Shown here one piece after another: positions 2,941 through 26,222 of a DNA stretch of 39,490 nt. A model generated the notes under the pieces. That model saw only the letters and a list, made by a program, of their open reading frames with translations. It was not told the DNA's origin and did no database searches. The stretch is taken from UHGV virus genome UHGV-0154499. One strand, given 5' to 3'. Positions within the stretch are counted from its first letter, which is position 1. Each line of letters opens with the position of its first letter. Source of the DNA: a virus. The position numbers were made by a program, and so were the translations under genes.

Positions 2941-3510
2941 TTACTGCTGATCTTCGACGTATATCCCAGCAGAAATAATCGCCCCACCAATTCGACGCTT
3001 ACCATACCCTAGGGGGACGGGATATCCCTGCGCCGCTGTATTAGTTACCCCGCCGAAAGCATACGAAGCGCGGTTATCTGCACTTTGTTTACTGGCAAGA
3101 CCTGATGGTTGTGGTGAGAGCATTTGAATAACTCCACCAGCAGCCAAAGAAATGCCTGCTGTAGCCACGTAATACTGCTGTGTTACAACCCCAACAACGA
3201 CCAAAGCAGCCCCAAGAATAGTTTGTAATAACCCTGCTTTTTTACTCCCAATAATTACAGGAACTATCCGTATAACCTCTCCTGTAACAGGATAACCAAG
3301 GTCACCCTCACCAATGTTTTTTTTCCCTTTAAATATGGCGTAAGTAAGCCCACGTCGTTTACTGGAGATCATATATTTCCGAAAACCATCTATGGTAGCC
3401 GAAAGAGCAACACCAGCTTCCTGCACATTGCTAATCAGTCGATGATGGGTCTTACCATAAATTTTCCCCAGATCTCCACCGAGTTCGATACGAGTCATTA
3501 CTTCAGTCAT
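2941..3510 (-). CDS. I: Tail assembly protein I
   Basis: Ubiquitin-like N-terminus (RIELGGDL), hydrophobic glycine-rich C-terminal half (GGVIQMLSPQ) as in lambda gpI. Start moved to the internal ATG at 3510, which has an AGAGG RBS; the track start at 3528 is TTG. Confidence 0.8.
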   Translation of the reverse strand: MTEVMTRIELGGDLGKIYGKTHHRLISNVQEAGVALSATIDGFRKYMISSKRRGLTYAIFKGKKNIGEGDLGYPVTGEVIRIVPVIIGSKKAGLLQTILGAALVVVGVVTQQYYVATAGISLAAGGVIQMLSPQPSGLASKQSADNRASYAFGGVTNTAAQGYPVPLGYGKRRIGGAIISAGIYVEDQQ

Positions 3511-3569
3511 TTGAACCTCTAAAAGCAAAAAACCCCGCCGTAGCGAGGTTTTGAAGAATATTAATTTGG

Positions 3570-3980
3570 TCAGAACGCCGTTGGGTGAATGCCAAAGTCG
3601 CCATTTGTTCCATAACCAATTCGGTACATGAGCGTGGCACTTTCAGTTACCTTGCCTGACTGTTCACTCATACCACCACCACATACACCTTTGGGCCATG
3701 CGCTAAAGATATGGTCACCTAATTTAGGGTAAACCGTTACCTTTTCAGCTGTATCTAAGTCCGCAACTTCTTTCCCATCAACATAGACACGAGTCAAACA
3801 TGCGCTACCCATAAATCCAGAATCCCTCTTGATGATCACCTTCCCTGTCCCATCATTTTTAACCAACATCGTATTGTCGATAATTTGTTTGACGGGAACA
3901 TCTTTTGCCTGCTCATTTGTTACCGGCTTAGTGGCGCAACCAACCATCAAAACTGCAAGTAGAATTATTCCTCTCTTCAT
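3570..3980 (-). CDS. Putative lipoprotein of unknown function (accessory gene; possible superinfection-exclusion protein)
   Basis: Internal start MKRGIILLAVLMVGC gives a signal peptide with a lipobox (LMVGC); the 19 residues upstream in the track ORF lack an RBS. No recognisable domain. Confidence 0.6.
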   Translation of the reverse strand: MKRGIILLAVLMVGCATKPVTNEQAKDVPVKQIIDNTMLVKNDGTGKVIIKRDSGFMGSACLTRVYVDGKEVADLDTAEKVTVYPKLGDHIFSAWPKGVCGGGMSEQSGKVTESATLMYRIGYGTNGDFGIHPTAF

Positions 3981-4020
3981 ATTCCTATCCCTTTGAGTCA
4001 ATTTGCTAAAATGGTAACAG

Positions 4021-4057
4021 GGAAAAGACAGCGACAAAACCCGCAGTTAAGCGGGTT
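4021..4057 (-). terminator. Rho-independent terminator downstream of the KilAC antirepressor gene
   Basis: Minus-strand hairpin AACCCGC-TTAAC-TGCGGGTT followed by TTTGTCGCTGTCTTTT. Confidence 0.5.
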
Positions 4058-4093
4058 GTGAGTAATACGATGAATACTTGAACTGTAGCCTGA

Positions 4094-4837
4094 TCAGGCC
4101 ACACTAGCCCCTTGGAGCAAATGTCGTAATGCCTTGATGCCTTCAGAGTTATAGCGAAACGCCTCAACCTGTTTATCGGAATGTTTCGACTTGTCGAGGA
4201 AGAATTTACCGTATTGCTCTGTTTTCAGATTGTGCTTGTTAGCCAAGCGACCAACCTTATTGGCAGAACAGCCGATCTCAGCAGCAACTTCTCCAGCGGT
4301 AGCGTAGTGTTCATCAATCAACGGCAAAGGCATGACCTCGTGCCCAAGCAGTGGATTAACAAGCGTTGCAACGATCACCTGGTTTGCTGATTCACCAAGT
4401 CTTGGGAACATTGACATCAACTCACGAGCTGAGGCGATATTTTTCTCCAGCGCCAGCGCTTTCAACTGCTCCGCCTTTGCACGTCGATATTCAGGAAGAC
4501 CCGAGCTATTTTGCGCTGAAATCTGGATAGCCTGCATATCTTCCAACTTATCAACTAGAGAACGTCGAACTGCTTTCGATTCACGAGCTGCTACGCGGAG
4601 GGCTTGCTTGATAGACATTGTAATTACTTCAATGTCTTGACCATTTTTACGACCTACACTTTTTGTGTAGGTCTCACCATCAAGCTCATCGACAACTTTC
4701 TCAATGAACTTGTTATTTCGGACAACCGGCTCACCGCACTGCTTTCGCGCGGCATTCACCATCTCCAGCAGGTACTGACTGTCAATGGTTTTCTCGGTGA
4801 CAACGCTACCCTTTGATGCTAAATTTAATGAAGTCAT
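4094..4837 (-). CDS. Phage antirepressor-like protein, KilA-C/ANT C-terminal domain
   Basis: C-terminal ATAGEVAAEIGCSANKVGRLANKHNL matches the KilAC (ANT) DNA-binding pattern; AAGGA RBS 9 nt upstream of the ATG. Confidence 0.65.
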   Translation of the reverse strand: MTSLNLASKGSVVTEKTIDSQYLLEMVNAARKQCGEPVVRNNKFIEKVVDELDGETYTKSVGRKNGQDIEVITMSIKQALRVAARESKAVRRSLVDKLEDMQAIQISAQNSSGLPEYRRAKAEQLKALALEKNIASARELMSMFPRLGESANQVIVATLVNPLLGHEVMPLPLIDEHYATAGEVAAEIGCSANKVGRLANKHNLKTEQYGKFFLDKSKHSDKQVEAFRYNSEGIKALRHLLQGASVA

Positions 4838-4864
4838 TAAGTGGTCCTTATGACGGTTTCATGG

Positions 4865-4899
4865 ATAGCCGATAGCTCGAACTATCGGCTATTCTTTTT
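4865..4899 (+). terminator. Perfect 11-bp inverted repeat with a plus-strand T-run (terminator-like, or a regulator binding site)
   Basis: ATAGCCGATAG-ctcgaa-CTATCGGCTAT followed by TCTTTTT, between the BRO-N and antirepressor genes. Confidence 0.4.
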
Positions 4900-4913
4900 G
4901 CATTTAAGCAAAT

Positions 4914-5495
4914 TCAATAAATCCTCGGTCGTTCTCCCTGTTGTAGTTGTTGATCAGCATATTCCTTAATCATATATATGAATGCCGCCCCATCATTAAA
5001 ACGATCATGAAGGCGACCAGCCAAAGGTGACTCTATTGCCCTCAAAGCTGGTTCTATCTGGTTAAACCATGCTTCACACATAACCTCGAAATAATCGAAC
5101 ATTGCGTTTGCATTGTGGGCGTGGATTTCACGATTGCTGAGCATCTTTGTTGCTGGAATGTTTATAGAAACCTCACGATCCAGAATGTCTAAAACCCAGC
5201 GTCGGAATTCTTTAGCAACTGGAGTTCTGGCAAACATAGCGACCATGTGTGCGCCACGTAGAGAAAAAACCCGAGTTTCCTGATTCCCACCAGGGGTGGT
5301 CAACCTGACCACCCTTGTCATTTTTTCTGTAAATTCATCACAATGCCTAGCATGTATGCGCTGTACAGCCTTATCGTCTGCATACTGAAGCGCAAAACCG
5401 ATCTGATTTGCGCTCAACCAAATTCCATCGATATCGGAGATGGTCTGAAAAGATACGCCTTGGAAGTTAAGCTCTGTTTTGGTTACACTATTCAT
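4914..5495 (-). CDS. BRO-N domain protein (phage antirepressor/regulator family)
   Basis: BRO-N-like N-terminus (ELNFQGVSFQTISDIDGIWLSANQIGFALQY...RVFSLRGAHMVAMFARTPVAKEFRRWVLDIL). Start set at the internal ATG (MNSVTK) with an AAGGAAA RBS; the track start at 5591 is GTG and overlaps the upstream small gene. Confidence 0.7.
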   Translation of the reverse strand: MNSVTKTELNFQGVSFQTISDIDGIWLSANQIGFALQYADDKAVQRIHARHCDEFTEKMTRVVRLTTPGGNQETRVFSLRGAHMVAMFARTPVAKEFRRWVLDILDREVSINIPATKMLSNREIHAHNANAMFDYFEVMCEAWFNQIEPALRAIESPLAGRLHDRFNDGAAFIYMIKEYADQQLQQGERPRIY

Positions 5496-5568
5496 GTCGA
5501 TATTTCCTTCGCGGGATTTGTTCGATAAGAAGCCCCGGCTATCGCAATTAGTTGGGGCTTCACTGTTT

Positions 5569-5736
5569 TTAAGCCTGAGCACTTTTTTCACCTGTCAAAC
5601 CATATGCCTTTCTCAGTTGGTAAATCAGTTCGGTATTGAACTGACGACATTCTTCCCCGCCATTCCTTTCAATCGCCTCGCGAACATCCTCCGGAATGCG
5701 AATTTTGCGCTGGTACATATCTTTCGCTTTTTGCAT
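5569..5736 (-). CDS. Small Arc-like ribbon-helix-helix protein (55 aa), not in the ORF track
   Basis: Manual translation MQKAKDMYQRKIRIPEDVREAIERNGGEECRQFNTELIYQLRKAYGLTGEKSAQA; strand-helix-helix pattern like Arc/Mnt; AAGGAG RBS 6 nt upstream; first gene of the minus-strand operon ahead of BRO-N. Confidence 0.55.
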   Translation of the reverse strand: MQKAKDMYQRKIRIPEDVREAIERNGGEECRQFNTELIYQLRKAYGLTGEKSAQA

Positions 5737-5854
5737 TTCATCTCCTTAAGCCCCACCGTGGGGCACTAAAAGTGTCACACCGTGCGTCATTGAAGTCAAC
5801 CCCACCGTGGGGCATAATTTACAAATTGTGAATTTTTAGAGGTCAAGCCAGCAA
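5737..5854. promoter_or_regulatory. Divergent promoter/operator region with two copies of the 13-bp palindrome CCCCAC-C-GTGGGG
   Basis: Palindromes at about 5751-5765 and 5800-5814. Plus-strand promoter TTGAAG-17 bp-CATAAT overlaps copy 2; minus-strand promoter TTGACT-17 bp-GACACT lies just upstream of copy 1. Confidence 0.55.
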
Positions 5855-6289
5855 ATGAGCAGAGAAGATCCACAGCTTAGAATCAGACTTCCTATTGAAT
5901 TGAAAGAAAAAATTGAGGAAGCAGCTAAGTCTAATAATCGCTCCATGAATGCAGAAATTGTTCAGCGTCTTGATGCCAGTTTCTTAAGCGAAATGCCGGT
6001 AGATGAATTAGTTTCAGCTGAAGAAGCCCTACTTATCGTAAGTCGCGCAAAGGATGAACTGTCAGGGATAATTTTCAAACGGACATTTTCCGTCATTAAC
6101 GAGAAGATCCGTATTGGGCACACTACATTCCATATCAGCCTTAGCGACTTAGACCTTGAAGGCTTGAGCGATGATGATTTTGAAGCTGTGTTTAAGTCTA
6201 CATTCTCCCGCCTAAAAAGCCTGGGTTACAACATTTGGGAGTCAAGCTGGGATGTGAACGGATTCATGGTTGAGATTCCTAAGAAATAG
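5855..6289 (+). CDS. Arc/Mnt-like ribbon-helix-helix repressor with a C-terminal extension (144 aa)
   Basis: N-terminus RIRLPIELKEKIEEAAKSNNRSMNAEIVQRLDASF is a canonical Arc/MetJ-family RHH motif; transcribed divergently from the small RHH/BRO operon. Confidence 0.7.
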   Translation: MSREDPQLRIRLPIELKEKIEEAAKSNNRSMNAEIVQRLDASFLSEMPVDELVSAEEALLIVSRAKDELSGIIFKRTFSVINEKIRIGHTTFHISLSDLDLEGLSDDDFEAVFKSTFSRLKSLGYNIWESSWDVNGFMVEIPKK

Positions 6290-6296
6290 ATTCACA

Positions 6297-6321
6297 GTAA
6301 AAGCCCACCTTATGTGGGCTT
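6297..6321. terminator. Bidirectional terminator between convergent gene K and the Arc-like gene
   Basis: AAAAGCCCAC-cttat-GTGGGCTT with U-runs on both strands; overlaps the K stop codon. Confidence 0.5.
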
Positions 6322-7030
6322 ATAAAAGATCCTTATACCGTAGAACCTTTGTCGTTCTTTCCTGCCAGTATCCCCCATACGGTACACGCTGACTCAAATG
6401 ACCATAAAGATGGTGGAGTAACATGTTACCTTCCAGCAGGATCCCTGCATGGTTCCACTTATTAGCCTGGACCTGCATGATAACCATATCACCTGGCTGC
6501 GGTACGCCACTGAATTCTCGGAATCCGCATTCATACCAGCAATCGTGGTAGAAATTTTCGGGGTAACTATCCTCCCACCAGGGATAATCCACGCGGTAAT
6601 CCGTCAGCTCAATGCTATGCGTTTGCCGGAAATAACTCATCACCAGCCCCCAGCAATCGAAATGGCCGAGCACGAACGGACGTTCCAGCAGCGGTAACTC
6701 GCCGCGCGGCTGAATGGTGCGTAAATCCCCTTCCGGCCAGCTGACGATATGCCAGGGAAGTAACGTAGCGTCACACTGTGCCTTATCCAGTTCGCTCGCC
6801 TGCGTCGTGGCATCCGGGTGGCTGTGGACAATGGCAATCACTGTTCCCCAGTCTTCGGCAGCGGCATAATCTTCCGGCGACAGGTGGAAATGCTCTGTTG
6901 GATCGGTTGCCAGATTACGGCAGGGAATGTACCGCTGCACCCTGCTTTTTTGCACCACTACGCCGCAGCTCTCCCGCGGATATTCAGCGGCAGCATGCGC
7001 CATAATGGCATTGATAATTCTCTGACGCAT
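6320..7030 (-). CDS. K: Tail assembly protein K (JAB/MPN plus NlpC/P60 domains)
   Basis: JAMM motif HSHPD and an NlpC/P60-like C-terminal half; sits between L and I as in lambda. Confidence 0.85.
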   Translation of the reverse strand: MRQRIINAIMAHAAAEYPRESCGVVVQKSRVQRYIPCRNLATDPTEHFHLSPEDYAAAEDWGTVIAIVHSHPDATTQASELDKAQCDATLLPWHIVSWPEGDLRTIQPRGELPLLERPFVLGHFDCWGLVMSYFRQTHSIELTDYRVDYPWWEDSYPENFYHDCWYECGFREFSGVPQPGDMVIMQVQANKWNHAGILLEGNMLLHHLYGHLSQRVPYGGYWQERTTKVLRYKDLL

Positions 7031-7031
7031 A

Positions 7032-7787
7032 TCAGCTCCTGATCAGGGATGTACCAGGGAAACCACCAAACGGTAACTCGTTCCCCACGCCATGTCGCAA
7101 CTTGCACGCAGTGAGCGTACCGGGGCATTCATCGAGCGAAGGATCGTTAACCGGGTTGTTGTGCTTGTCGAAATAACGCGTTCCGGCATAGTCACATCCA
7201 TCACCTGAGCGGTATTTGTTACGGATACACCAGGTACAAAGCGAATGTAGCTGGCGCGTCGGGATCATCAGTCCCTGCAGGTCCATTGGACTGGACAACG
7301 TAAACGCCACCACCTCGTTGGTTTCAGTGCTCTTGGCGTCAATGTAAAACACCTTCAGCTTTTCCTGCTGCGGATCCGCTGACGGGTTGCCCTCCGGATA
7401 GTTTTTCGCATCCAGATACTGCGCCAGCGTGTCATGAATCGTGACCTTTGCCTGCAGCAGGTCATCATAAGCAAGACACAGCGCCGTAATGGAACTATCC
7501 AGGTTAGCGACCGACAGCGTCGGCTGCGCGCTGGTCCCGTCGGTCGCCGTCTCAATACCCTCGATCTGGCAGGGCCAGGCTTTATATTCCTGCCCCTGCC
7601 ACCAGATTGATTTCGCCGGTAGCTTATTTTCATCTCCACCAGCAGCGGCAATTTCATCGGGAGTGTGGGCAATGTTGTGGGCGTGGAAGCGGAGAACGTC
7701 GGAAACACCAAATGCGGTGCCATCGACATCAAAAAGCCGGACAACATTGCCCGGCTCAAGTTTCTGGTAATCACTGTTTAAGCTCAT
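7032..7787 (-). CDS. L: Minor tail protein L
   Basis: Position and size as lambda gpL; C-terminal Cys cluster (CTWCIRNKYRSGDGCDYAG) typical of gpL. Confidence 0.85.
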   Translation of the reverse strand: MSLNSDYQKLEPGNVVRLFDVDGTAFGVSDVLRFHAHNIAHTPDEIAAAGGDENKLPAKSIWWQGQEYKAWPCQIEGIETATDGTSAQPTLSVANLDSSITALCLAYDDLLQAKVTIHDTLAQYLDAKNYPEGNPSADPQQEKLKVFYIDAKSTETNEVVAFTLSSPMDLQGLMIPTRQLHSLCTWCIRNKYRSGDGCDYAGTRYFDKHNNPVNDPSLDECPGTLTACKLRHGVGNELPFGGFPGTSLIRS

Positions 7788-8131
7788 GGTGCAAACGCCT
7801 GTTCAAAGGTGGCTGATACGGTTTCCACCGTTTTACTTTTGGTGACGCGCTGCAGGCTGTCTGCCTCAACGCGCCAAAGCGCAAGATCACCGCCTGGCGG
7901 GGTAAACGAAAATGATTTCGTCTTATGGCGCCGCAGAAAAGCATAGATATCCTTGACGGTTCCCGGTTCGCCGGTAAATGAAAACTCATAGCTGAGCGTT
8001 TCATCATTCATCCCGGCACCTGACACCTGCTTATAGCCATCACCAAACTGTGCCGTGCGGACGGTATCCTTACTTTTCAGGGTCGGCTGGCTGGATGCTT
8101 TAATCCGCCACGCAAAATGCTCGATCGCCAT
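7784..8131 (-). CDS. M: Minor tail protein M
   Basis: FGDGY motif and size of lambda gpM; 4-nt overlaps with neighbouring genes. Confidence 0.82.
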   Translation of the reverse strand: MAIEHFAWRIKASSQPTLKSKDTVRTAQFGDGYKQVSGAGMNDETLSYEFSFTGEPGTVKDIYAFLRRHKTKSFSFTPPGGDLALWRVEADSLQRVTKSKTVETVSATFEQAFAP

Positions 8132-8134
8132 TGC

Positions 8135-10651
8135 TTACCTCTGTTTTGTTGCATTCCAGATAATGCCTCCGGGCCGGACCTCTCTGGTGATACCTTCCCT
8201 GATGGAACTGTTGATCACCTGCTGATAGGCTTTCCCCAGCGCATCGCCGCTTCCTTTCTGTTGACCGGAATCCCCCTGGCCTGTTGTCACCGAAACCGGC
8301 GCATACACGCTGACGCCAAAAGGAGAAGCAACGCCACCGCCACTCACGCCGACCAGACCACCAGTCGCATAACCGCGCATCATGCGATAAAGGTTGCCGA
8401 CACCTATTCGGTTGGTGGCCTCCTGCGTAAAGACAAACTCGCCACGGTGCACCACACCTGCTGGCTCATACTTGCCGCCGGATCCGGTATAACCACCGCC
8501 AGCAAAACCCAGCGCTGACGTGGCAGAACTGACCAGGCCAGCCATGGCCTGCTTCATCAGGATCTGCGTCAGCATCGACAACGTTGAACGGGTGAAATCT
8601 GCCCAGTTTGCTTTCCCTGTCGTCAGCATATCGGCCATATTCTGGCTGATACCATCGAATGTGGCTGAAGCAGCGGACTTCATCGAACCATAGGCATCAG
8701 CTGCTGAATCGGCATAGTCAGCCCACGCTGATTTCGCCCCGGCCTGCCAGTTGCCGCGGAGCTCGTCCTGTGCGGCATAATATTTCTTCAGTGCATCCAG
8801 TTCGTTCTGATAACCCTGATCGGTGTCCGTACCGCCGGCATTCATCCAGCCCTGCCGCAGCTGTGCTTCTTCGTTTTGCCGCTGTGCGCCGCGACTGCTC
8901 ATGCTTCCCCCGGCCACAAGCGCCCGGGTTTTCTCCCCAATCTGGGTAACGTACTTCTGCGAGCTGTCCTGCAGGCGGTTTAACCGTTCCTGGGCAACAA
9001 TCTGATCGCCCAGCCGGGCATTCACTTCGGCCCGCGCCAGTACCTCGTCTTTGTTCGCCAGCACCGATTTTTCATCGGCGGTCAGCGCGCGCTTTTTGGC
9101 GGCTTCTTCCAGCACCGAAAAGCGGGATTGTTGTTTCCACAATTCCTGCCGCTGCTGGCTGATGGTATCCGTGATGCTCTTATGCTCCTGCAGGGTGCGT
9201 AACTGAGCCTCCAGCTCCAGCGTCTGCGCGCTGGCAGTATCGACACTTTTTACACCTGCAGGTGTTTTTACCGCTGAAGGGGCTTTGGGTTTCTTCAGCG
9301 AGTCGTCGTATTCTTTTTTCGCAGCTTCCAGATTGATGTTGTAATCAGCCTGGAGGATCCGTCCGTCTTTAAGCGCCTTGTTCAGTTCATTCTGACGGGC
9401 CGTGTACTTCTCCAGCGCAGTCTGCGTCTTTGCATAATTCGACTGCGCCTGCGCGGCATACTTCTGGCGGTCAGATTCAATCACCGCCTCGCGGGCGGCG
9501 TTATCCTCAGTGGCCTTTGCCACACTGGCCTGCTGCTGCGCCATTTCCAGTGCAAGGCGGGCAGACTCCCGATCGTTCCAGTAGCTGGCACGCGCATCAT
9601 CATTGACATAACCATCACCTTTACGCAGATTCCAGATTTCATCCGCCCGCTTAAAGGCCGCTTCCGCTTTGGCTACCATCTCCTGCGTGGTGTCAGGCCG
9701 CCCGATATCGAGCGCCGCATCCCACATCGATTTAAAGGCACGCTTCAGGCTGTCGGCAGCAGACTCAATCGACCCCATATTGTCGCGCAGGCTCTTTGTC
9801 TGCTCACGAAAACCGTTCGTCGCCGCATCATTAGCTGCCTGCAGTGCCTCGGCTTCATCCCCGGCACGCTGCAGCTGCGCCACATAAGCAATCTGTTCCG
9901 CTGTGACGTTGTGGAACTGCTGCGCCATGGCAATCAGACCAGAGGTCGGATCGTTCGTCAGTTTGCCGAATGCCGCCGCCACCTTATCGACCGGCACACC
10001 CGACGCATCGGTGAATTTCGCTACCGCCTGACTCATCTCATCGAACCGGGCACCGGCACGCACTCCGGCGTTGACAAGCTCTGTCAGCGCGCTGCTGGTC
10101 TGGTTAAACGTGAGTCCAGCCTGTTCGCCGGATTTCGCCAGCACCAGCATGCGGTTTGAGGTCAGTCCGGCAGTATTACCGGACAGAACCAGCGTTTTAT
10201 TAAAATCAGACAGCGTGGACGATCCCTGATACCAGGCGTAAACCACCGCGCCGGTGGCGGCTGCCAGCGCGCCAACCCCCACCATCACCGGCGATATGGT
10301 GCCCAGCAGCGCGCGGAAGGTCGGAATGATACCGCCGAAGGAGTCTTTCACCTGACCGCCCTGCTGCAGCAGGATAAGCCACGGACTCTGCCCGCCGGCC
10401 AGCTGTGTTGCAACATCCGTGAATTGCGCAGGCAGCATTCTCATCGCATTACTGTACTGCCCAATTGATAAACCCGCTTTCTTGGCGGCCAGCTCCTGAC
10501 GGGATAACGACTGCTGCACCTTCAGCGCAGAGTCGTTCGCCGCGTCACCCGTCTGCTTAAACTGCCGTTTTACGTACTCCATCTGCTCGTTGAACTTTGA
10601 CGAATTAACGTCAAGGTTAACGACCAGGTCACCCACTGCCGTCTGGGCCAT
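8135..10651 (-). CDS. H: Tail tape measure protein H
   Basis: 838-841 aa; coiled-coil-rich centre and glycine-rich C-terminus; N-terminus MAQTAVGDLVV aligns with lambda gpH MAEPVGDLVV, so the start is probably the ATG at 10651 rather than 10660. Confidence 0.9.
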   Translation of the reverse strand: MAQTAVGDLVVNLDVNSSKFNEQMEYVKRQFKQTGDAANDSALKVQQSLSRQELAAKKAGLSIGQYSNAMRMLPAQFTDVATQLAGGQSPWLILLQQGGQVKDSFGGIIPTFRALLGTISPVMVGVGALAAATGAVVYAWYQGSSTLSDFNKTLVLSGNTAGLTSNRMLVLAKSGEQAGLTFNQTSSALTELVNAGVRAGARFDEMSQAVAKFTDASGVPVDKVAAAFGKLTNDPTSGLIAMAQQFHNVTAEQIAYVAQLQRAGDEAEALQAANDAATNGFREQTKSLRDNMGSIESAADSLKRAFKSMWDAALDIGRPDTTQEMVAKAEAAFKRADEIWNLRKGDGYVNDDARASYWNDRESARLALEMAQQQASVAKATEDNAAREAVIESDRQKYAAQAQSNYAKTQTALEKYTARQNELNKALKDGRILQADYNINLEAAKKEYDDSLKKPKAPSAVKTPAGVKSVDTASAQTLELEAQLRTLQEHKSITDTISQQRQELWKQQSRFSVLEEAAKKRALTADEKSVLANKDEVLARAEVNARLGDQIVAQERLNRLQDSSQKYVTQIGEKTRALVAGGSMSSRGAQRQNEEAQLRQGWMNAGGTDTDQGYQNELDALKKYYAAQDELRGNWQAGAKSAWADYADSAADAYGSMKSAASATFDGISQNMADMLTTGKANWADFTRSTLSMLTQILMKQAMAGLVSSATSALGFAGGGYTGSGGKYEPAGVVHRGEFVFTQEATNRIGVGNLYRMMRGYATGGLVGVSGGGVASPFGVSVYAPVSVTTGQGDSGQQKGSGDALGKAYQQVINSSIREGITREVRPGGIIWNATKQR

Positions 10652-10994
10652 AGCGAACACCTCCTGAAATGCCCTCGGCCTTTGCCATCAGCACAGCGTC
10701 ACCGGGTTCATCGTCGGCAATATCCTCCGCAGAAGGTGAAAGCAGGCTGAAGCTGGCAGGGGTTGATGTGGTTTTGGGGTCAAGCGCGGTAATGACGATA
10801 TGCATCAGCGAGGAAAAATGCGCATCCAGTTGCACATCATTAAAAAAATTGTCCTGGTAGAACGTTCGCCAGTCGGCGTATTCCGTTGACGACATACCAG
10901 CAAGCATGGCGCGCCAGTCCGGGCGGCGAAATTCACGCGCCAGTTTCAGGACGAATGTCAGCTCACTGGCGAGGACTTTTCCAGACTGATCGGC
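10629..10994 (-). CDS. T: Tail assembly chaperone T frame, expressed as a G-T fusion by programmed -1 frameshift
   Basis: The -1 frame is open from about 10994 and overlaps the 3' end of G; translation (MLAGMSSTEYADW...PASFSLLSPSAEDIADDEPGD) matches lambda gpT; an A-rich slippery stretch CTGGAAAAG sits in the overlap. Confidence 0.75.
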   Translation of the reverse strand, partial: ADQSGKVLASELTFVLKLAREFRRPDWRAMLAGMSSTEYADWRTFYQDNFFNDVQLDAHFSSLMHIVITALDPKTTSTPASFSLLSPSAEDIADDEPGDAVLMAKAEGISGGVRYGPDGSG

Positions 10995-11365
10995 TCAGTC
11001 ACAGCTACATCCTCCGGATCATTTGCTTCCTGCAGCGGCACCATGCCGGACAGCAGCTTCACGCTGTACTCTGCAGCGGAAACAATCTCCAGCGGCCAGG
11101 TCATCAGCACTTCATTCTGGATCTGCTCAACGTCTTCTTTCGGCGTTTTGTGCGTCCCTTTCAGGGGATGTCCATGCCATAAAGACATGGCCACCAGCAG
11201 TGCGCCGGATTTAATCGTCATATCCATCGCCGCCTGCATGTCGGCATCGGTGATACTTTCCAGCGTCTTCAGGTGTTCAAGATGCTCAATACGCTGCAGC
11301 GCCGACAGTTCGTAGAGCGTGACGGTCTTACCGTTGCGTTCGAACGGCTCACTTTTTAAAAACAT
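10958..11365 (-). CDS. G: Tail assembly chaperone G
   Basis: MFLKSEPFERNGKTVTLYELSALQRIEHLEHL matches lambda gpG (MFLKTESFEHNGVTVTLSELSALQRIEHL). Confidence 0.9.
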   Translation of the reverse strand: MFLKSEPFERNGKTVTLYELSALQRIEHLEHLKTLESITDADMQAAMDMTIKSGALLVAMSLWHGHPLKGTHKTPKEDVEQIQNEVLMTWPLEIVSAAEYSVKLLSGMVPLQEANDPEDVAVTEPISLEKSSPVS

Positions 11366-11402
11366 GGGTTACTCCAGAAAGCGGGGCCACAAGCCCCGGA
11401 GG

Positions 11403-12140
11403 TCAGGAAATGGTGACTTTACAGGTCGCGACAAACAGCCCGTCGTTGGTCATCACGATAATGTCGGCGGTTCCGGCGGCAATGCCGGTTACCGTCAGCA
11501 CCGTACCGGCGACAGTCACCGTGGCTTTACCTGCATCCGTGGTGGTGGCCCGGAAAGATTGATCACTCGCGCTGGCTGGCGCCACGGTGACATTCAGCGT
11601 GGTGGTGGCAGCAACTGCAACGGTGGTGGTCGATTTATCCAGGCTGACGCCGGTTACGTCTATCACTGCAGCAGCGCTGTCTTCAGCAAGACCTGGCTTG
11701 CCGTTGTTACTGATTTTGACAGAACGGGTAATGGTGTCTTTTGCCGTCACCGTTTTACCCAGGCTGCTTACCCAGCCACGGAATACATCGATGGCGCCAT
11801 TCGGGTATTTGATTTTGTACGCCAGCACGGTACCGTCATCAAACCAGCGAACCAGATCCTGCTGCCCGCTCTCGGCAGGTTTCCAGGCCAGCGTAAAACT
11901 GGCCTCCCCCGCCGATTTCTGTCCCTGCGCGGTAGCAGTCCAGTCGGCATCATCGTCATCCAGATAGGTATCATCGTTTGATTCGGCAGTCAGTTCACCG
12001 GGCTGCAGATCTTTAATCTTTGCCAGGCGCGTCCAGTCAACATCCGATAATGGGTTGGCGAAGGCGTTACCCGATCCGGAATAAATCCAGAGCGTGGTGG
12101 TGGCACCCTTTACCGGCGCCAGTGGGTTTGGTGTTGTCAT
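11403..12140 (-). CDS. V: Major tail protein V
   Basis: Near-identity of recalled lambda gpV motifs (LSDVDWTRLAKIKDL, SFTLAW, VFRGWVSSLGKTVTAK); C-terminal Ig-like domain. Confidence 0.93.
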   Translation of the reverse strand: MTTPNPLAPVKGATTTLWIYSGSGNAFANPLSDVDWTRLAKIKDLQPGELTAESNDDTYLDDDDADWTATAQGQKSAGEASFTLAWKPAESGQQDLVRWFDDGTVLAYKIKYPNGAIDVFRGWVSSLGKTVTAKDTITRSVKISNNGKPGLAEDSAAAVIDVTGVSLDKSTTTVAVAATTTLNVTVAPASASDQSFRATTTDAGKATVTVAGTVLTVTGIAAGTADIIVMTNDGLFVATCKVTIS

Positions 12141-12147
12141 TACGTCC

Positions 12148-12546
12148 TCACATTTCGTAAGTAATGGAATATTTCAGATCAGCCGAACTCCACAGCCCAA
12201 GATCGTCATCGCGCTGGTAGTCATATCCCTGCTGCACCATGTTAGTGATCAACGCGGAAAGTTCTGGCACATTGCCAAGCACCGGATAAATACGTGACTC
12301 CATCCAGTCATCGAGCTCGGAATCGGGTACCTGCGCTGGTAAAAATATTTCGATATGCAGCGTGGCCTGCCAGATATCAGCATCCAGTTCTTCTCCGGTA
12401 TACCCTGCATCCGTCAGGAAGACAGCGACCGCCGGAAAATCCCCCTCCTCCAGTACCGCTGGACGTCCGTCAAAATAGAGTGCGCCTTTACCAATATGGC
12501 TCTCCAGCGCATCAATAATGGCCTTTCTAATATCAGTGTGTTTCAT
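12148..12546 (-). CDS. U: Tail terminator protein U
   Basis: MKHTDIRKAIIDALE...FDGRPAVLEEGDFPAVAV matches lambda gpU. Confidence 0.92.
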   Translation of the reverse strand: MKHTDIRKAIIDALESHIGKGALYFDGRPAVLEEGDFPAVAVFLTDAGYTGEELDADIWQATLHIEIFLPAQVPDSELDDWMESRIYPVLGNVPELSALITNMVQQGYDYQRDDDLGLWSSADLKYSITYEM

Positions 12547-13097
12547 CGTTTCAGAATCATCCTGAGTTGGTTTTTAAGGGATGCCCGAAGTTCTTTAGGC
12601 ATATCCGATTCCATGAGCTTCGGCAGCTCATCTTTAAATGCGGTCGTCAGTGGCGCTGCCAGTGGAATGCTGACCACTTCGATCGGATAGCGGGGTCTGG
12701 ATGTCCGTCGCATCACATGCCAGCGACCATTTTCCAGTTGTTGAATAAAGGCCCCGGGGAAACGAAAAGGGCCAATACGCAACACACTATTGGCCCCTTT
12801 TTTGTCCCGTTTTCTGCGGGATAACCGTACGCTGGCGGTACCGAGCTTTATCGCGGGCAGATTGCCCCGGTTCACGCGGATCATTGCCATCGGCTTTTTC
12901 GCCGTGGCGCGTTTTATCCTCGCGCGTTGTTTTACCAACTTGCGTGGCACCCGTGTATCTTTCGAGACAACGGCAACGCTTCGGCTGACAGCCCGGGTGG
13001 CGACACGGTTAACAGCCTGCGCCGAGGCCCGCGGAACCGCCGTATTGCTGATGCTGTTCAGGTTTGATATAGCCTGTTCAAGCCCTTTTAAAGACAT
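12543..13097 (-). CDS. Z: Tail completion protein Z
   Basis: Lambda gpZ-like (LKGLEQAISNL...IPGAFIQQLENGRWHVM); 4-nt overlap with U. Confidence 0.9.
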   Translation of the reverse strand: MSLKGLEQAISNLNSISNTAVPRASAQAVNRVATRAVSRSVAVVSKDTRVPRKLVKQRARIKRATAKKPMAMIRVNRGNLPAIKLGTASVRLSRRKRDKKGANSVLRIGPFRFPGAFIQQLENGRWHVMRRTSRPRYPIEVVSIPLAAPLTTAFKDELPKLMESDMPKELRASLKNQLRMILKR

Positions 13098-13106
13098 AGT
13101 TTTCCC

Positions 13107-13460
13107 TTAACGGCGCCGGGTCGCTGCGGGAGGAGAACCCGTACCAAGCCAGATATGGCAGGAGCCACAGTCATCAGGACCAATACGATCAACCCAGAAA
13201 GGTTTTCCGTTAATATCCAGCGTGTCCAGCCGCGCCAGTTGCCCAATCGTTGCTGATTTCACAAACAACGACGGGCTGGTCCCCTCGACACGGATGCCGG
13301 GTGTGGCGTAACCGATATTTTCCGGATCATCGAAAACACCACTCAACGTGACGCCAGAAATCGCGCCGGACGTTACCGTTGCAGAAGTCCCCATAACCTG
13401 CCGAATAGTGTCATCGGCCTGTGTTATTGCAGCATCAAAAAGGTTATCGAAATCAGCCAC
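13107..13460 (-). CDS. FII: Head-tail joining protein FII
   Basis: MADFDNLFDAAI...GVFDDPENIGYA is close to lambda gpFII; 117 aa. Confidence 0.92.
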   Translation of the reverse strand: MADFDNLFDAAITQADDTIRQVMGTSATVTSGAISGVTLSGVFDDPENIGYATPGIRVEGTSPSLFVKSATIGQLARLDTLDINGKPFWVDRIGPDDCGSCHIWLGTGSPPAATRRR

Positions 13461-13471
13461 ACAGCCCCCTG

Positions 13472-13876
13472 CTAGTACTCGCGGACCAGTCCGAGTGCAA
13501 CCAGGCTGTCCGCATCCGCTTGTGTCACGCGGATCACGGTACCCGCTTCCACAATAGATACCCGTTCATCGCGGGTCGCGTGCAGCGCCTCAATGTGCAG
13601 CGTGGCCAGCGTTTCGACGGCCATCAGCGCGCTATCTGTTCTGCCGCTTAACACAGTATCCACTGGCGGCACGGGTTCTGCGGCGCCGGTGGATGCACTA
13701 CCATCACTTACGCCACCATTTTCAACACTATCGGTATCAGTGCCGTCATTCAGTTCTTCCTCCAGCTCTGCAATGCGCATAGAGAGCTCCTGAATGGTGC
13801 CACTGGTATTCACTTCCCGACCAAGCTGCGCGCCAAGCTCATTAAGCCGCGCAATCAACTTTTCTTTTTCTGTCAT
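13472..13876 (-). CDS. FI: DNA packaging protein FI
   Basis: Size, position and N-terminal coiled-coil as lambda gpFI. Confidence 0.85.
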   Translation of the reverse strand: MTEKEKLIARLNELGAQLGREVNTSGTIQELSMRIAELEEELNDGTDTDSVENGGVSDGSASTGAAEPVPPVDTVLSGRTDSALMAVETLATLHIEALHATRDERVSIVEAGTVIRVTQADADSLVALGLVREY

Positions 13877-13921
13877 AAGAACAACTCCGGAACAGGGCCC
13901 CGCAGGGCCACAGAATGGACA

Positions 13922-14947
13922 TCAGGCGAGTTTGACAGACACGAACGCATCCGGGTCAGCCAGCAGCATCAGTGGTGCAGACTGGATCATGGTGAACTCA
14001 CGCGCCGGATCGCCTGTCTGTACCCAGTTTTTCGGATAACGCGTGGAAGCGTTAATGCCTTCACGCTGGGCATCAACATCCTGAATGCAGCCGTAGGTGC
14101 GCAAACCGCGCGCCTGGGTATTACCCAGCACCATGCTCAAATCCGGCAGGTAGTTCTTTTTGGTGTCGTCTTCAATGTATTGCCCGGAGTAAACGACAAT
14201 GGCCACATCGCCATACATTCCCTTATAGGAGACCGCTTCACCCAGATCTTTCAGCGCCGTTTCCAGTTCAGAGTTAGAACCGCGACGGGTGTCGAGCTTC
14301 TCTTTTACCGCTTTGAATGAACGGAACAACGCCCAGCCCTTCGGATCAAAGACGATAATATTGACCACGCCGCTGGCGTTCAGCGCATAGGTTTCAATAT
14401 CGTCAGTGGGGTCATAGGTTTCTTTGTCGCGGGTGCTCCATGCCGCAGCACCTGCCTGGATGATGTTGTTTCCGGCACTACGTCCCATATCCACCTCAAC
14501 CGGTTCAAACGCTTCGCCGGTCATGGTGTATTTACCGTTGAGAACAGCAGCCACAGCCTGTTTCTCTTCCACCTGGGCAATCGCCAGTTCTTCATCCTTC
14601 ATGTTCTGCAGGATAATGCGACGGCGGCGGTAGGCCGGGTCAGCCAGATTTTGCGGGTCTTCATCCGGCAGGCGGCGCAGCGTCATCTGCGGGTTTACCT
14701 CGTGCTTGGGCTTGACGTAACCCGGCGTAAACTCTGACGTTGTGCCACCACGGGAGCGGATAACCTTGCCGGAAATAACCGGCGAGACGTACAGCGCCAT
14801 GTTAACCATGCCCGGGATTTGCGACAGATACACCTTCTCGGTGCTGAAGGGGTAGCTTTCACGGAAGAAGATACGCAGGAAAAGCGGATCGAATTTGAAT
14901 TTCTTCTCATTGACCGCCAGTAGTTGGGCAGTTGTGTAAATTGACAT
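13922..14947 (-). CDS. E: Major capsid protein E
   Basis: From the internal ATG (MSIYTTAQLLAVNEKKFKFDPLFLRIFFRESYPF...) the sequence is near-identical to recalled lambda gpE (341 aa); the track ORF is extended upstream into D. Confidence 0.95.
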   Translation of the reverse strand: MSIYTTAQLLAVNEKKFKFDPLFLRIFFRESYPFSTEKVYLSQIPGMVNMALYVSPVISGKVIRSRGGTTSEFTPGYVKPKHEVNPQMTLRRLPDEDPQNLADPAYRRRRIILQNMKDEELAIAQVEEKQAVAAVLNGKYTMTGEAFEPVEVDMGRSAGNNIIQAGAAAWSTRDKETYDPTDDIETYALNASGVVNIIVFDPKGWALFRSFKAVKEKLDTRRGSNSELETALKDLGEAVSYKGMYGDVAIVVYSGQYIEDDTKKNYLPDLSMVLGNTQARGLRTYGCIQDVDAQREGINASTRYPKNWVQTGDPAREFTMIQSAPLMLLADPDAFVSVKLA

Positions 14948-22772: not shown

Positions 22773-23387
22773 TCACACCAGTGCAACTTTTGCTTTGGCG
22801 TAACGTTCACGGCGGTCTTTAATGCCGTTCTGTCCGCCGTTAATAATCTGCGTTACGCGTTCCACATCCCCCGAATACATCAGGCAACCGCGTAACGTGA
22901 AGTACCACGCCGCCGAACGAGCCGCGTGTCGCTCCTGCGTTAGCAATTCTGGTGTACTGACAAGGTCAAGTTTCAGCGCAGCACCACATTTGGTGTAGTT
23001 CTCACGGCCAGTAATTTGAAGCAGGCCACGACCGCGATATTTCCAGCCGTCACCCTGGCTGTTATTCCCCATGCGGTCACCGTAAACCAGATTGGCTATT
23101 TGCGGCTGGTGGGCGACCTGCTGACCATCGACACGCCCCAGCATTTCGCACTGATACGGCGTCAGACGCTTACCGAAGGTTTTCTTCAGCCCCTCAACCG
23201 AGTAGTTGAAGCTTTCTACCAGCGAAGTAAAACCAGCAGATTCATGCCCAACTTGTGCAATGAACATGGCCTGGTCGTTAAGTGCTGTAATACCAAACTC
23301 TTTCATTGCTGCATCAATGTGCAGAAACCAGCGTGCAGAAACCCCGGCGCTGATACCAGCCGCCTGCTGAAATTGTGATTGGTTCAT
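22773..23387 (-). CDS. Endolysin, glycoside hydrolase family 19 (chitinase-like)
   Basis: GH19 catalytic-region motifs (IAQVGHESAGFT, YRGRGLLQITGRENY). Confidence 0.85.
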   Translation of the reverse strand: MNQSQFQQAAGISAGVSARWFLHIDAAMKEFGITALNDQAMFIAQVGHESAGFTSLVESFNYSVEGLKKTFGKRLTPYQCEMLGRVDGQQVAHQPQIANLVYGDRMGNNSQGDGWKYRGRGLLQITGRENYTKCGAALKLDLVSTPELLTQERHAARSAAWYFTLRGCLMYSGDVERVTQIINGGQNGIKDRRERYAKAKVALV

Positions 23388-23542
23388 ATGTATACCGGAT
23401 TAAACCACTATTAATAGTAGGGATTAGAATTCACCTAAGATGATGAAATTCAATTTAATTTAAGTCACAATAAGACTTAAGATAAATCTTAATGATTTCA
23501 TCTTCTTTGCGGGTTGTAGCGATGTCGCTGCGACTCGCTTTT

Positions 23543-24420: not shown

Positions 24421-24448
24421 GTTAACTATTAGATTCCAAAGGAATATT

Positions 24449-25390: not shown

Positions 25391-25393
25391 TTT

Positions 25394-25859: not shown

Positions 25860-26222
25860 TCAATCCAAATCTAATCTAGCACTAATCATGCACAAACAGC
25901 CGTCAACAAAACCCTCTGCCATTTGCATCTCTATCCTTATTATTTTTTCGTCTTTTTTTTGAGCTTTAGCAATTTTACGCTTCGATACTCCATACAGATA
26001 ATGTGCGACAATAAGTGAATGCTCATATGGTTTCCTTTTCTTGAGGCGAGCTAAGCAACCTTCAATAATCAGAGCATCTTCATCAGTGCAAGAAAGGCGA
26101 GTCTTGCTCGTTTGGGGAAGTAGCCCTTTAAAGCCAGCTGCAATTGGTGAGTAATCCACGCCAGAACTATCGCTCGCGGCCCATCCCCCCCAACGTTCTA
26201 ATACCATCTGAATATCACGCAT
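25860..26222 (-). CDS. Q: Late-gene antitermination protein Q (phage 82/21-type family)
   Basis: 120 aa; MRDIQMVLERWGGWAA... N-terminus and Cys-rich region typical of 82-type Q antiterminators. Confidence 0.8.
   Translation of the reverse strand: MRDIQMVLERWGGWAASDSSGVDYSPIAAGFKGLLPQTSKTRLSCTDEDALIIEGCLARLKKRKPYEHSLIVAHYLYGVSKRKIAKAQKKDEKIIRIEMQMAEGFVDGCLCMISARLDLD

What the first reader, a model, noticed from the sequence alone, without database searches (positions are those of the whole stretch)
3570..3980. Accessory lipoprotein inside the tail gene cluster (candidate superinfection-exclusion factor)
A lipobox lipoprotein with no recognisable domain lies between tail gene I and the antirepressor gene. 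Prophage lipoproteins at tail-proximal positions (lambda Bor, Cor-like proteins, T5 Llp) often block receptors or alter the envelope.
Basis: inference. Interest (0 to 1): 0.4.

Follow-up and report, generated by a model that had tools for sequence, protein, structure and literature searches.

The report
Accessory lipoprotein cassette in tail operon
A Citrobacter prophage carries, between two tail genes, a small self-contained gene for an exported membrane-anchored protein. It belongs to a very widespread but uncharacterised phage family, and probably alters the host envelope, perhaps against other phages, rather than building the virus.

Summary
Window 3570-3980 (minus strand) encodes a 136-aa protein with a signal peptide and lipobox (LMVG|C), between tail gene I and an antirepressor-like gene.

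It is a real gene (dN/dS 0.04-0.10) of PHROG family 890 ("lipoprotein", E=7e-51). It has no Pfam, NCBIfam or PDB sequence match. Distant relatives weakly match DUF2846, and the predicted fold is a generic beta-sandwich.

It behaves as a classic moron:
- It lies in a 2.8-kb low-GC insert that a close E. coli relative lacks.
- An intrinsic terminator follows it, and a conserved extended -10-like element precedes it.
- Relatives sit at five different junctions of lambda-like tail operons, always co-directional. Others lie after gpD of P2-like prophages (8% of complete E. coli genomes) and directly downstream of cI in Vibrio phages.
- Distant non-phage members lie beside SIR2-HerA, AbiGi and restriction-modification genes.

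Superinfection exclusion is therefore plausible but unproven. A Cor/Llp-style block of one specific receptor is disfavoured, because the protein does not co-vary with receptor-binding proteins and its motifs are conserved across Proteobacteria. I found no published functional data.

This is an ordinary kind of element from an uncharacterised family, of modest interest.

The parts
3570..3980 (-). Lipoprotein CDS, 136 aa plus stop; phrog_890 family, remotely DUF2846-like
   Evidence: dN/dS is 0.04-0.10. The AF2 model has pLDDT 87.8 and shows an 8-strand beta-sandwich.
3936..3980 (-). Signal peptide (residues 1-14) and lipobox Cys15 (codon 3936-3938). The +2/+3 residues are Ala-Thr, so there is no Asp inner-membrane retention signal.
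   Evidence: Translation. Cys15 is invariant in alignments A2 and A3. 245 of 254 family members have a lipobox, and +2/+3 = AT in 169. Outer-membrane sorting is an inference from the Lol +2 rule.
3981..3993 (-). Ribosome-binding region AAGGGATAGGAAT, directly upstream of the ATG
   Evidence: GGGATAGG(G/A)AT-ATG is conserved in the window, E. coli VREC0864, mEp390 and HK639.
4011..4019 (-). Extended -10-like element TGtTACCAT, 30 nt upstream of the ATG (putative own promoter)
   Evidence: One search gives the position. TGnTAnnnT lies 20-60 nt upstream in 58 of 116 unique loci, against 6.9 expected from shuffles. The consensus scan found no sigma-70 promoter here. Promoter function is inferred.
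4035..4060 (-). Hairpin after the upstream 247-aa gene; a terminator-like insulator upstream of the cassette
   Evidence: RNA fold -13.1 kcal/mol, z = -3.5. The CTGCGGGTTTTG arm is shared with HK639 and partly with E. coli VREC0864.
3529..3552 (-). Intrinsic terminator directly after the lipoprotein gene and before gene I
   Evidence: -14.9 kcal/mol, z = -4.7. A terminator-like site follows the gene in 84 of 116 unique loci (9 in shuffles), including every K-I, TMP-M and I-J copy.
2941..3510 (-). Tail assembly gene I (context). It is the downstream neighbour and shares the low GC of the insert.
   Evidence: PF06805; called as 189 aa in Citrobacter records; GC 45%.
4094..6289 (.). Co-inserted cargo (context): 247-aa ORF 4094-4837(-), Bro-N/P22_AR_C antirepressor 4914-5591(-), Arc-like 5569-5736(-) and Mnt-like RHH 5855-6289(+). 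Together these resemble the P22 immI module.
   Evidence: GC is 42-47%, against 53-58% in the tail genes.
6320..7030 (-). Tail gene K (context); the upstream border of the insert
   Evidence: Prok-JAB + NlpC/P60. K overlaps I directly in E. coli strain 97.3.
25860..26222 (-). Q antiterminator (context). It would let late transcription read through the cassette's terminators.
   Evidence: PF06530, E=4.6e-53. Read-through is inferred from lambda biology.

Best explanation
The gene is a moron: a self-contained accessory cassette made of an insulating hairpin, an extended -10-type promoter, an RBS, the ORF and an intrinsic terminator. It sits in the late tail operon of a lambda-like Citrobacter prophage.

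**Shown or strongly supported.**
- Its product has a Sec/Lgt/LspA-type lipoprotein signal, so it leaves the cytoplasm and cannot be a virion part.
- With Ala at +2 it should be sorted by Lol to the outer membrane.
- The mature part is a compact beta-sandwich. Two loops carry the family's invariant residues (K51-R52-D53-x-G55...C61 and C100-x-G102-G103...E106, plus R120). These loops are probably tied together by a C61-C100 disulfide.

**Inferred.**
- In the lysogen the gene is transcribed from its own weak promoter. After induction, Q-antiterminated late transcription reads through both terminators, so it is also made together with the tail.
- Its most likely job is lysogenic conversion of the envelope that protects the lysogen from incoming phages. 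It would act on a conserved envelope component or on the penetrating tail tip in the periplasm, like HK97 gp15 or Gram-positive Ltp. Masking one particular outer-membrane receptor is less likely.

The cassette and lipoprotein part carries about 0.9 confidence. The anti-phage function carries about 0.4-0.45, which is the confidence given below.
For: **Cassette and accessory status.**
- An E. coli relative (K 89%, L 87% identical) has K overlapping I with nothing between them.
- The insert is 44.5% GC, against 53-58% in K, L, M, TMP and J. The same GC dip occurs at the homologue in mEp390, HK639, E. coli VREC0864 and a P. aeruginosa phage.
- A terminator lies directly downstream. It is present at 84 of 116 unique loci against 9 in shuffles, and at every copy in the three main tail-operon junctions.
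- A conserved TGnTAnnnT element is found at 58 of 116 loci, against 6.9 expected.

**Mobility.**
- Homologues occupy the TAC-TMP, TMP-M, M-L, K-I and I-J junctions. They also occur after gpD of P2-like prophages, after cI, and next to an integrase.
- All 1472 tail-gene matches within 4 kb are on the same strand.

**Expression in lysogens.**
- In Vibrio phage H20 the gene starts 15 nt after the cI stop codon, has its own SD, and is followed by a terminator.
- The Q antiterminator is present in the window.

**Export.**
- The lipobox and Cys are invariant, and +2/+3 are Ala-Thr.
- C61 and C100 are invariant or nearly so.

**Selection.** dN/dS is 0.04-0.10.

**Defence association.**
- Non-phage members neighbour SIR2-HerA (L015), AbiGi (L017) and PDC-S65/caspase (L073).
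- In aggregate their neighbours also include restriction-modification, PD-Lambda-3, PD-T4-7 and Dazbog proteins and an Ltp-family lipoprotein.

**Precedent.** HK97 gp15, the founding moron, lies at the TAC-TMP junction and blocks DNA entry (PMC3594210).
Against: - There are no functional data for any family member.
- The protein has no PADLOC match.
- The promoter is a motif inference. The sigma-70 consensus scan found nothing there, so the gene might be expressed only late.
- The defence-gene neighbourhoods were counted only in aggregate. They may simply reflect mobile-element hot spots, since the same neighbourhoods contain integrases, terminase and conjugation genes.
- Within the K-I class the protein co-diverges with the whole tail-tip module (Spearman 0.81 with K, 0.75 with I, 0.71 with L). 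That could also mean a phage-side rather than a host-side role.
Confidence: 0.42

Rival explanations
1. Receptor masking. The lipoprotein would bind and close the specific outer-membrane receptor used by this phage, like Cor or T5 Llp on FhuA. That would exclude homologous phages and protect progeny from debris.
For: - It is an outer-membrane-type lipoprotein.
- It is co-directional with, and just upstream of, I and J, so it is co-expressed with the adsorption apparatus.
- It co-diverges with the tail-tip module within the K-I class.
Against: - The identical protein is found with J proteins of 977-1194 aa that differ at the C-terminus, and with different side-fibre genes.
- HK639 and mEp390 have central-fibre C-termini reported as 80% identical but lipoproteins only 29% identical.
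- Copies 73-76% identical occur in P2-like myovirus prophages with unrelated tails.
- The invariant motifs are kept from Enterobacterales to Vibrio, Pseudomonas, Nitrosospira and Geomonas, and purifying selection is strong. This points to a conserved target, not a variable receptor.
- There is no sequence relation to Cor or Llp.
Confidence: 0.15
2. Host-fitness or virulence conversion unrelated to phages. This would be an envelope lipoprotein that raises serum, stress or antimicrobial resistance, like lambda Bor/Iss.
For: - It is moron-encoded and exported, and it is retained in a degraded prophage that has lost its head genes (L029).
- It is present in 436 of 5426 complete E. coli genomes, including ST131.
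- The family also occurs in free-living environmental bacteria.
Against: - There is no similarity to Bor/Iss or any known virulence family.
- Its occurrence in nitrifiers, Geomonas and sediment metagenomes argues against a host-animal-specific role.
- The neighbours in non-phage loci are defence and mobile-element genes rather than envelope or stress operons.
Confidence: 0.2
3. A phage-side late function. The protein would be made with the tails and act during lytic growth, for example by modulating lysis or the outer membrane, sparing progeny from re-adsorption, or conditioning the periplasm.
For: - It is always co-directional with the late genes.
- Q is present, so the terminators would be read through.
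- There is long co-divergence with K, L and I, from Pseudomonas to enteric phages.
- A weak hit to an Rz-like spanin PHROG exists (E=0.033).
Against: - The spanin hit covers only the signal peptide (residues 2-28).
- The gene is far from the lysis cassette (22773-24197) and has no i-spanin partner.
- Close relatives lack it altogether.
- In Vibrio phages it sits in the cI operon, which is expressed in lysogeny.
- Copies in non-phage contexts exist.
Confidence: 0.15
4. A hitch-hiking or decaying ORF with no function.
For: It is annotated only as 'hypothetical protein' or 'lipoprotein' everywhere.
Against: - dN/dS is 0.04-0.10.
- 1597 cluster representatives match, with invariant motifs.
- The RBS and terminator are conserved.
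Confidence: 0.02

Closest known systems
HK97 gp15 moron (superinfection exclusion; Cumby et al. 2012, reviewed in PMC3594210)
   Same: - It is a single small envelope-targeted gene inserted in a lambda-like tail operon, co-directional with it, with its own expression signals.
- Some family members (Yersinia, Kosakonia) occupy exactly the gp15 junction between the tail chaperone and the tape measure gene.
   Different: - gp15 is a YebO-like inner-membrane protein confined to Enterobacteriaceae.
- This protein is an outer-membrane-type lipoprotein with a beta-sandwich domain, found across Proteobacteria.
- There is no sequence relation, and exclusion has not been shown here.
T5 Llp and phi80/N15/HK022 Cor (FhuA-blocking lipoproteins)
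   Same: Both are phage-encoded outer-membrane lipoproteins encoded near adsorption genes (my knowledge of these systems; Cor is summarised in PMC3594210).
   Different: - There is no sequence match.
- There is no co-variation with receptor-binding proteins.
- The distribution is much wider and purifying selection is strong.
Lambda Bor / Iss
   Same: It is a moron-encoded outer-membrane lipoprotein of a lambdoid prophage.
   Different: - There is no PF06291 match.
- Bor lies by the lysis genes and is not tail-proximal (my knowledge).
- The fold family is different.
Ltp of Streptococcus phage TP-J34 (PF07553)
   Same: It is a prophage lipoprotein that acts outside the cytoplasmic membrane. Ltp blocks DNA injection (PMC3952083 abstract), which is the mechanism favoured here by analogy.
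   Different: - Ltp is from a Gram-positive host and is unrelated in sequence.
- An Ltp-family protein appears only as a neighbour of one distant member.
Pfam DUF2846 (PF11008) / PHROG 890
   Same: - PHROG 890 matches end to end.
- DUF2846 is weakly matched by 22 of 34 distant relatives.
- Both are small lipoproteins with a beta-sandwich of unknown function.
   Different: - The window protein itself does not reach any Pfam threshold.
- Neither family has a known function.

Membership tests
Moron (Juhala/Hendrix definition, as restated in PMC3594210) | Extra DNA that is absent from closely related phages | tested here: met
   In E. coli strain 97.3, K and I overlap with no insert. VREC0864 has a different insert, KilA-N plus the lipoprotein homologue.
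Moron (Juhala/Hendrix definition, as restated in PMC3594210) | Base composition differs from the surrounding genes | tested here: met
   The gene is 44.3% GC, against 53-58% for K, L, M, TMP and J. The same dip is seen in four other phages.
Moron (Juhala/Hendrix definition, as restated in PMC3594210) | Own terminator | tested here: met
   The terminator is at 3529-3552. Such a site follows 84 of 116 unique loci, against 9 in shuffles.
Moron (Juhala/Hendrix definition, as restated in PMC3594210) | Own promoter | tested here: inconclusive
   A conserved TGnTAnnnT element lies 20-60 nt upstream in 58 of 116 loci, against 6.9 expected. It is at 4011-4019 in the window. The consensus scan gave no sigma-70 match.
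Moron (Juhala/Hendrix definition, as restated in PMC3594210) | Expressed from the repressed prophage | not testable with these tools
   The evidence is indirect only: the Vibrio H20 homologue is 15 nt downstream of cI on the same strand.
Bacterial lipoprotein (Lgt/LspA substrate) | N-terminal signal peptide ending in a lipobox with an invariant Cys | tested here: met
   The sequence is MKRGIILLAVLMVG-C15. The Cys is invariant in A2 and A3, and a lipobox is present in 245 of 254 members.
Bacterial lipoprotein (Lgt/LspA substrate) | Lipid modification, signal peptidase II cleavage and outer-membrane localisation | not testable with these tools
   +2 is Ala rather than Asp, which suggests Lol export to the outer membrane. 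This is an inference.
PHROG 890 'lipoprotein' | Full-length HMM match | tested here: met
   E=7e-51, residues 6-136 against profile positions 7-136 of 136.
Pfam DUF2846 (PF11008) | Match above the Pfam gathering score | tested here: not met
   The window protein has no Pfam hit at E<=1. 22 of 34 distant relatives hit weakly, best E=6.3e-5. It is a remote relative, not a member by Pfam's criterion.
Lambda Bor / Iss (PF06291) | Sequence family match | tested here: not met
   There is no Pfam or NCBIfam hit.
Cor / Llp receptor-blocking lipoproteins | Sequence relationship to Cor or Llp | tested here: not met
   The only significant PHROG match is phrog_890.
Cor / Llp receptor-blocking lipoproteins | Specificity paired with the phage's receptor-binding protein | tested here: not met
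   The identical lipoprotein occurs with different J C-termini and fibres. Fibre tips reported as 80% identical go with lipoproteins 29% identical. Close copies occur in myovirus prophages.
Cor / Llp receptor-blocking lipoproteins | Blocks adsorption or receptor function | not testable with these tools
   This needs adsorption and plating-efficiency assays.
o-spanin (Rz1-like) | Lipoprotein encoded in or next to the lysis cassette, with an i-spanin partner | tested here: not met
   The phrog_812 hit (E=0.033) covers only residues 2-28. The lysis genes lie at about 22.8-24.2 kb, 19 kb away.
Known anti-phage defence systems (PADLOC-DB v2) | HMM match to a catalogued defence protein | tested here: not met
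   No PADLOC family matched at E<=0.1.

The most novel reading that the evidence does not exclude
The phrog_890/DUF2846-like lipoproteins could be a pan-proteobacterial, single-gene envelope defence, a Gram-negative counterpart of Ltp or HK97 gp15. Anchored to the inner face of the outer membrane, the invariant KRDxG/CxGG..E loop face would bind a conserved feature of the penetrating siphovirus or myovirus tail tip (tape measure, gpI or gpL), or a conserved periplasmic component. This would abort DNA delivery. That would explain why the gene has been kept inside tail-tip modules for so long and why it also appears in defence islands.
Probability: 0.2. Interest if true: 0.7.

Novelty: new member of a known kind. 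Interest (0 to 1): 0.35.

Why it matters
If the family does block phage entry, it would be one of the most widespread single-gene exclusion factors of Gram-negative prophages. It has about 1600 clusters at 50% identity and is present in 8% of complete E. coli genomes, including ST131. That would be relevant to phage-therapy host range.

Even without a known function, the survey shows one cargo gene occupying five junctions of the lambda-like tail operon, always with a terminator. This is a clean illustration of moron architecture and of Q-dependent read-through.

As it stands, this is an uncharacterised but already catalogued accessory gene.

Tried and rejected
**Sequence annotation**
- Pfam, NCBIfam and PDB sequence searches with the protein, and with a family profile, gave nothing usable.
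- The 'spackle' and chryseobasin hits are signal-peptide noise.

**Structure**
- The resemblance to TssJ is at the same level as dozens of unrelated sandwiches, so I did not use it.
- The afdb50 library was not available.

**Literature**
- Seven searches found no study of the family: moron/lipoprotein, P. aeruginosa morons, H20-like phages, DUF2846, mEp390/HK639, protein accession numbers, and lipoprotein/tape measure.
- The only DUF2846 mention concerns Bd1399, which its authors reassign to DUF4360.

**Ideas tested and rejected**
- A functional link to gene I was suggested by the shared low GC. However, lipoprotein divergence correlates with K (0.81) and L (0.71) as well as with I (0.75), so there is no specific coupling.
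- Co-variation with the receptor-binding region was not found.

**Searches that failed or fell short**
- The search for related loci with the divergent alignment A3 failed for lack of a conserved stretch. A2 was used instead.
- I guessed which large neighbours carried the PADLOC hits, but this located only one, L073. The number of distinct loci with defence neighbours therefore remains a lower bound.
- No other cargo ORF tested in the window gave a convincing PADLOC hit.

Full report
**1. What is there**

On the minus strand, ATG 3980 to stop 3570 encodes 136 aa: MKRGIILLAVLMVGC|ATKPVTNEQ...PTAF. The N-terminus has a basic n-region, a hydrophobic core and a lipobox with Cys15. An AAGGGATAGGAAT ribosome-binding region precedes the ATG.

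The neighbours on the same strand run in this order:
- tape measure gene, 8135-10660
- M, 7784-8131
- L, 7032-7787 (PF05100)
- K, 6320-7030 (Prok-JAB + NlpC/P60)
- an Arc-like gene, 5569-5736
- a Bro-N/P22_AR_C antirepressor, 4914-5591
- a 247-aa ORF, 4094-4837
- the lipoprotein gene
- I, 2941-3510 (PF06805)
- J, which runs off the left end

A divergent Mnt-like RHH gene lies at 5855-6289 on the plus strand. The lipoprotein gene is the last gene of a 2.8-kb cargo block between K and I.

**2. It is a real, constrained gene of a large family**

- PHROG 890 ('lipoprotein') matches end to end at E=7e-51.
- Pfam, NCBIfam and PDB sequence searches give nothing.
- The word-indexed search found 107 homologues, including a 100% identical Citrobacter freundii protein seen on 29 contigs. 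Others come from Salmonella, Klebsiella, Enterobacter, Yersinia, Xenorhabdus, Erwinia and Vibrio.
- A profile search of 1.84 billion cluster representatives found 1597 at E<=1e-3 and 928 at E<=1e-10, nearly all 130-145 aa.
- Of 254 retrieved members, 245 have a lipobox. The +2/+3 residues are Ala-Thr in 169, and the C-terminus is TAF in 179.
- Invariant or near-invariant positions are C15, K51, R52, D53, G55, C61, G88, C100, G102/G103, E106, R120 and the C-terminal PTAF.
- dN/dS against homologues at 1-30% amino-acid divergence is 0.04-0.10.
- 22 of 34 distant members weakly match Pfam DUF2846, best E=6.3e-5. No function is known for that family.

**3. Structure**

AlphaFold2 with a 37-sequence alignment gives pLDDT 87.8 and pTM 0.81, an eight-strand beta-sandwich. 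The structure searches returned only generic matches:
- Foldseek against the PDB has no hit at E<=1e-3.
- BFVD gives only DUF4352-like and other weak hits.

The fold is therefore a generic sandwich and does not assign a function.

The invariant residues fall in the beta1-beta2 loop (53-61) and the beta5-beta6 loop (97-106). Two invariant cysteines in an exported protein suggest that a disulfide joins these loops into one conserved face. This is an inference, because the model coordinates could not be inspected.

**4. Moron architecture**

*Presence and absence.* The best E. coli relative (strain 97.3; K 89%, L 87%, TMP 80% identical) has K overlapping I with no insert. Another (VREC0864) has K, a KilA-N gene, an 81%-identical lipoprotein gene, then I.

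*Composition.* The gene is 44.3% GC and the whole insert 44.5%, against 53-58% for K, L, M, TMP and J. The homologue shows the same dip in mEp390, HK639, VREC0864 and a P. aeruginosa phage.

*Terminators.*
- A hairpin plus T-run at 3529-3552 follows the stop codon (-14.9 kcal/mol, z=-4.7).
- A second hairpin at 4035-4060 follows the upstream gene (z=-3.5).
- Across 116 unique loci, 84 have a terminator-like site within 90 nt downstream, against 9 in shuffled controls. This includes 46 of 46 K-I, 9 of 9 TMP-M and 6 of 6 I-J copies, but only 2 of 25 copies outside recognisable phage contexts.

*Promoter.*
- The consensus scan found no sigma-70 promoter.
- However, an extended -10-like TGnTAnnnT lies 20-60 nt upstream of the start in 58 of 116 unique loci, against 6.9 expected.
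- In the window it is TGTTACCAT at 4011-4019, within a stretch conserved with VREC0864, mEp390 and HK639.
- Promoter activity is inferred, not shown.

*Read-through.* The prophage encodes a Q antiterminator at 25860-26222 (PF06530, E=5e-53), upstream of the lysis, head and tail genes on the same strand. By analogy with lambda, late transcripts should read through both terminators.

**5. Where relatives sit**

I used 189 loci from annotated phages, GTDB genomes, metagenomes and IMG/VR. These were classified by tblastn with tail-gene references, and unique loci were counted.

| Position of the gene | Unique loci | Examples |
|---|---|---|
| Directly upstream of I, after K or after other cargo | 55 | window, mEp390, Xenorhabdus, Erwinia, P. 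aeruginosa phages |
| Between TMP and M | 12 | HK639 |
| Between I and J | 6 | |
| Between M and L | 1 | |
| Between the tail chaperone and TMP (the HK97 gp15 junction) | 8 | Yersinia, Kosakonia |
| After gpD at the end of a P2-like myovirus prophage, next to yecA | 7 | 436 of 5426 complete E. coli genomes, including ST131 |
| 15 nt downstream of cI, same strand | 1 | Vibrio anguillarum H20-like phages |
| No recognisable phage neighbour | 25 | |

In Vibrio splendidus the gene also lies near an integrase at a prophage end.

All 1472 tail-gene matches within 4 kb are on the same strand as the lipoprotein gene. Each position class forms its own sequence cluster, except that I-J copies reach 82% identity to K-I copies. 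Relocation between junctions is therefore rare.

**6. Tests bearing on mechanism**

*Receptor pairing.*
- The 100%-identical protein occurs in Citrobacter prophages whose J proteins are 977-1194 aa. These are 92-93% identical but differ at the C-terminus, and they are followed by different fibre genes.
- HK639 and mEp390 have central-fibre C-termini reported as 80% identical, but their lipoproteins are 29% identical.
- Copies 73-76% identical sit in myovirus prophages.
- This is not the pattern expected of a Cor- or Llp-type blocker matched to its phage's receptor.

*Coupling to gene I.* Gene I shares the low GC when it is adjacent to the lipoprotein gene. However, lipoprotein divergence correlates equally with K (0.81), I (0.75) and L (0.71). 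This reflects linkage to the whole tip module, not a specific pairing with I.

*Defence neighbourhoods.*
- A Nitrosospira copy is followed by SIR2-HerA, and a deltaproteobacterial contig has two copies flanking AbiGi.
- Among 148 non-redundant neighbours of 42 distant loci, PADLOC models matched HerA, SIR2, type I, II and IIG restriction-modification proteins, PD-Lambda-3_B, AbiGi, PDC-S65, PD-T4-7 and DzbA. Pfam also found an Ltp-family lipoprotein.
- The same neighbour set contains integrases, terminase, a Mu protease, HNH and TrbL.
- This is suggestive of defence or mobile-element islands, but it was counted only in aggregate.

*Direct match.* The protein itself has no PADLOC hit.

**7. Interpretation**

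Three points are firmly supported:
- The gene is an accessory, horizontally mobile cassette.
- It encodes an exported lipoprotein that cannot be a virion component.
- It is under strong purifying selection.

Four points are inferred:
- outer-membrane anchoring, from the +2 rule
- a loop-joining disulfide
- expression in the lysogen, from the promoter motif and the Vibrio cI operon
- late co-expression through Q

The function is not established. I rank the possibilities as follows:

| Possibility | Confidence |
|---|---|
| Envelope-level protection against incoming phages, acting on a conserved step such as tail-tip or tape-measure passage, as with HK97 gp15 (PMC3594210) or Ltp (PMC3952083) | ~0.4-0.45 |
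| Phage-unrelated host-fitness factor | ~0.2 |
| Masking of one specific receptor | ~0.15 |
| Phage-side late function | ~0.15 |
| Junk ORF | ~0.02 |

**8. Novelty and score**

The element type is textbook: a moron-encoded lipoprotein. The family is already catalogued as PHROG 890, and the protein is identical to deposited Citrobacter proteins. It is therefore a new member of a known kind.

The family's size, its tenure in tail-tip modules and its defence-island neighbours make it a reasonable candidate for experimental test. Nothing here is surprising to a specialist. Interest is 0.35.

Noticed in passing
window 4094-6289: A P22 immI-like module lies inside the tail operon between K and the lipoprotein gene. 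It consists of a Mnt-like RHH (5855-6289, +), divergent from an Arc-like gene (5569-5736, -), a Bro-N/P22_AR_C antirepressor (4914-5591, -) and a 247-aa ORF with no Pfam match (4094-4837, -).
   Followed up: partly
window 27232-27957 (-): A further antirepressor-type gene (KilAC/ANT + pRha) lies in the early/nin region. The prophage therefore carries at least two or three antirepressor-like genes.
   Followed up: no
window 24419-25837 (+): Two ORFs lie antisense to the late operon between Q (25860-26222) and the holin. One is a 323-aa DUF6731 protein and the other a 147-aa protein with no match. This is cargo at the classic Q-S moron site. There is no PADLOC hit.
   Followed up: partly
window 2941-3510 (-), gene I: Gene I has the low GC of the insert (45%, GC3 33%) rather than that of the other tail genes (53-58%). 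In relatives where no lipoprotein gene is adjacent (E. coli 97.3, HK639), I is 52.6-53.5% GC. The exchanged block seems to include I. Co-divergence analysis showed no special lipoprotein-I coupling.
   Followed up: yes
L029 (Citrobacter GCA_021421755.1) 5355-14279: This is a degraded copy of the same prophage. Terminase gpA is fused to M, and the head genes and proximal tail genes are deleted. L, the mnt/arc genes, the 247-aa ORF, the identical lipoprotein gene, I and J are still called.
   Followed up: no
L009 (NZ_BMZO01000013.1, 'Limoniibacter endophyticus'): This contig carries an enterobacterial-type tail module (K 80%, L 71%, lipoprotein 71% identical to the window). The cause is either assembly contamination or a recent transfer.
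   Followed up: no
L017 5910-8865; L015 5980-10311: In a deltaproteobacterial MAG, two copies of the lipoprotein gene flank an AbiGi gene, and the second copy is frameshifted. In Nitrosospira multiformis a copy lies immediately upstream of a SIR2-HerA pair.
   Followed up: partly
L001 (HK639) 6001-7909: In HK639 the lipoprotein gene shares its TMP-M insert with a 190-aa hypothetical protein and a YafO-family toxin gene. Different cargo genes accompany the cassette in different phages.
   Followed up: no
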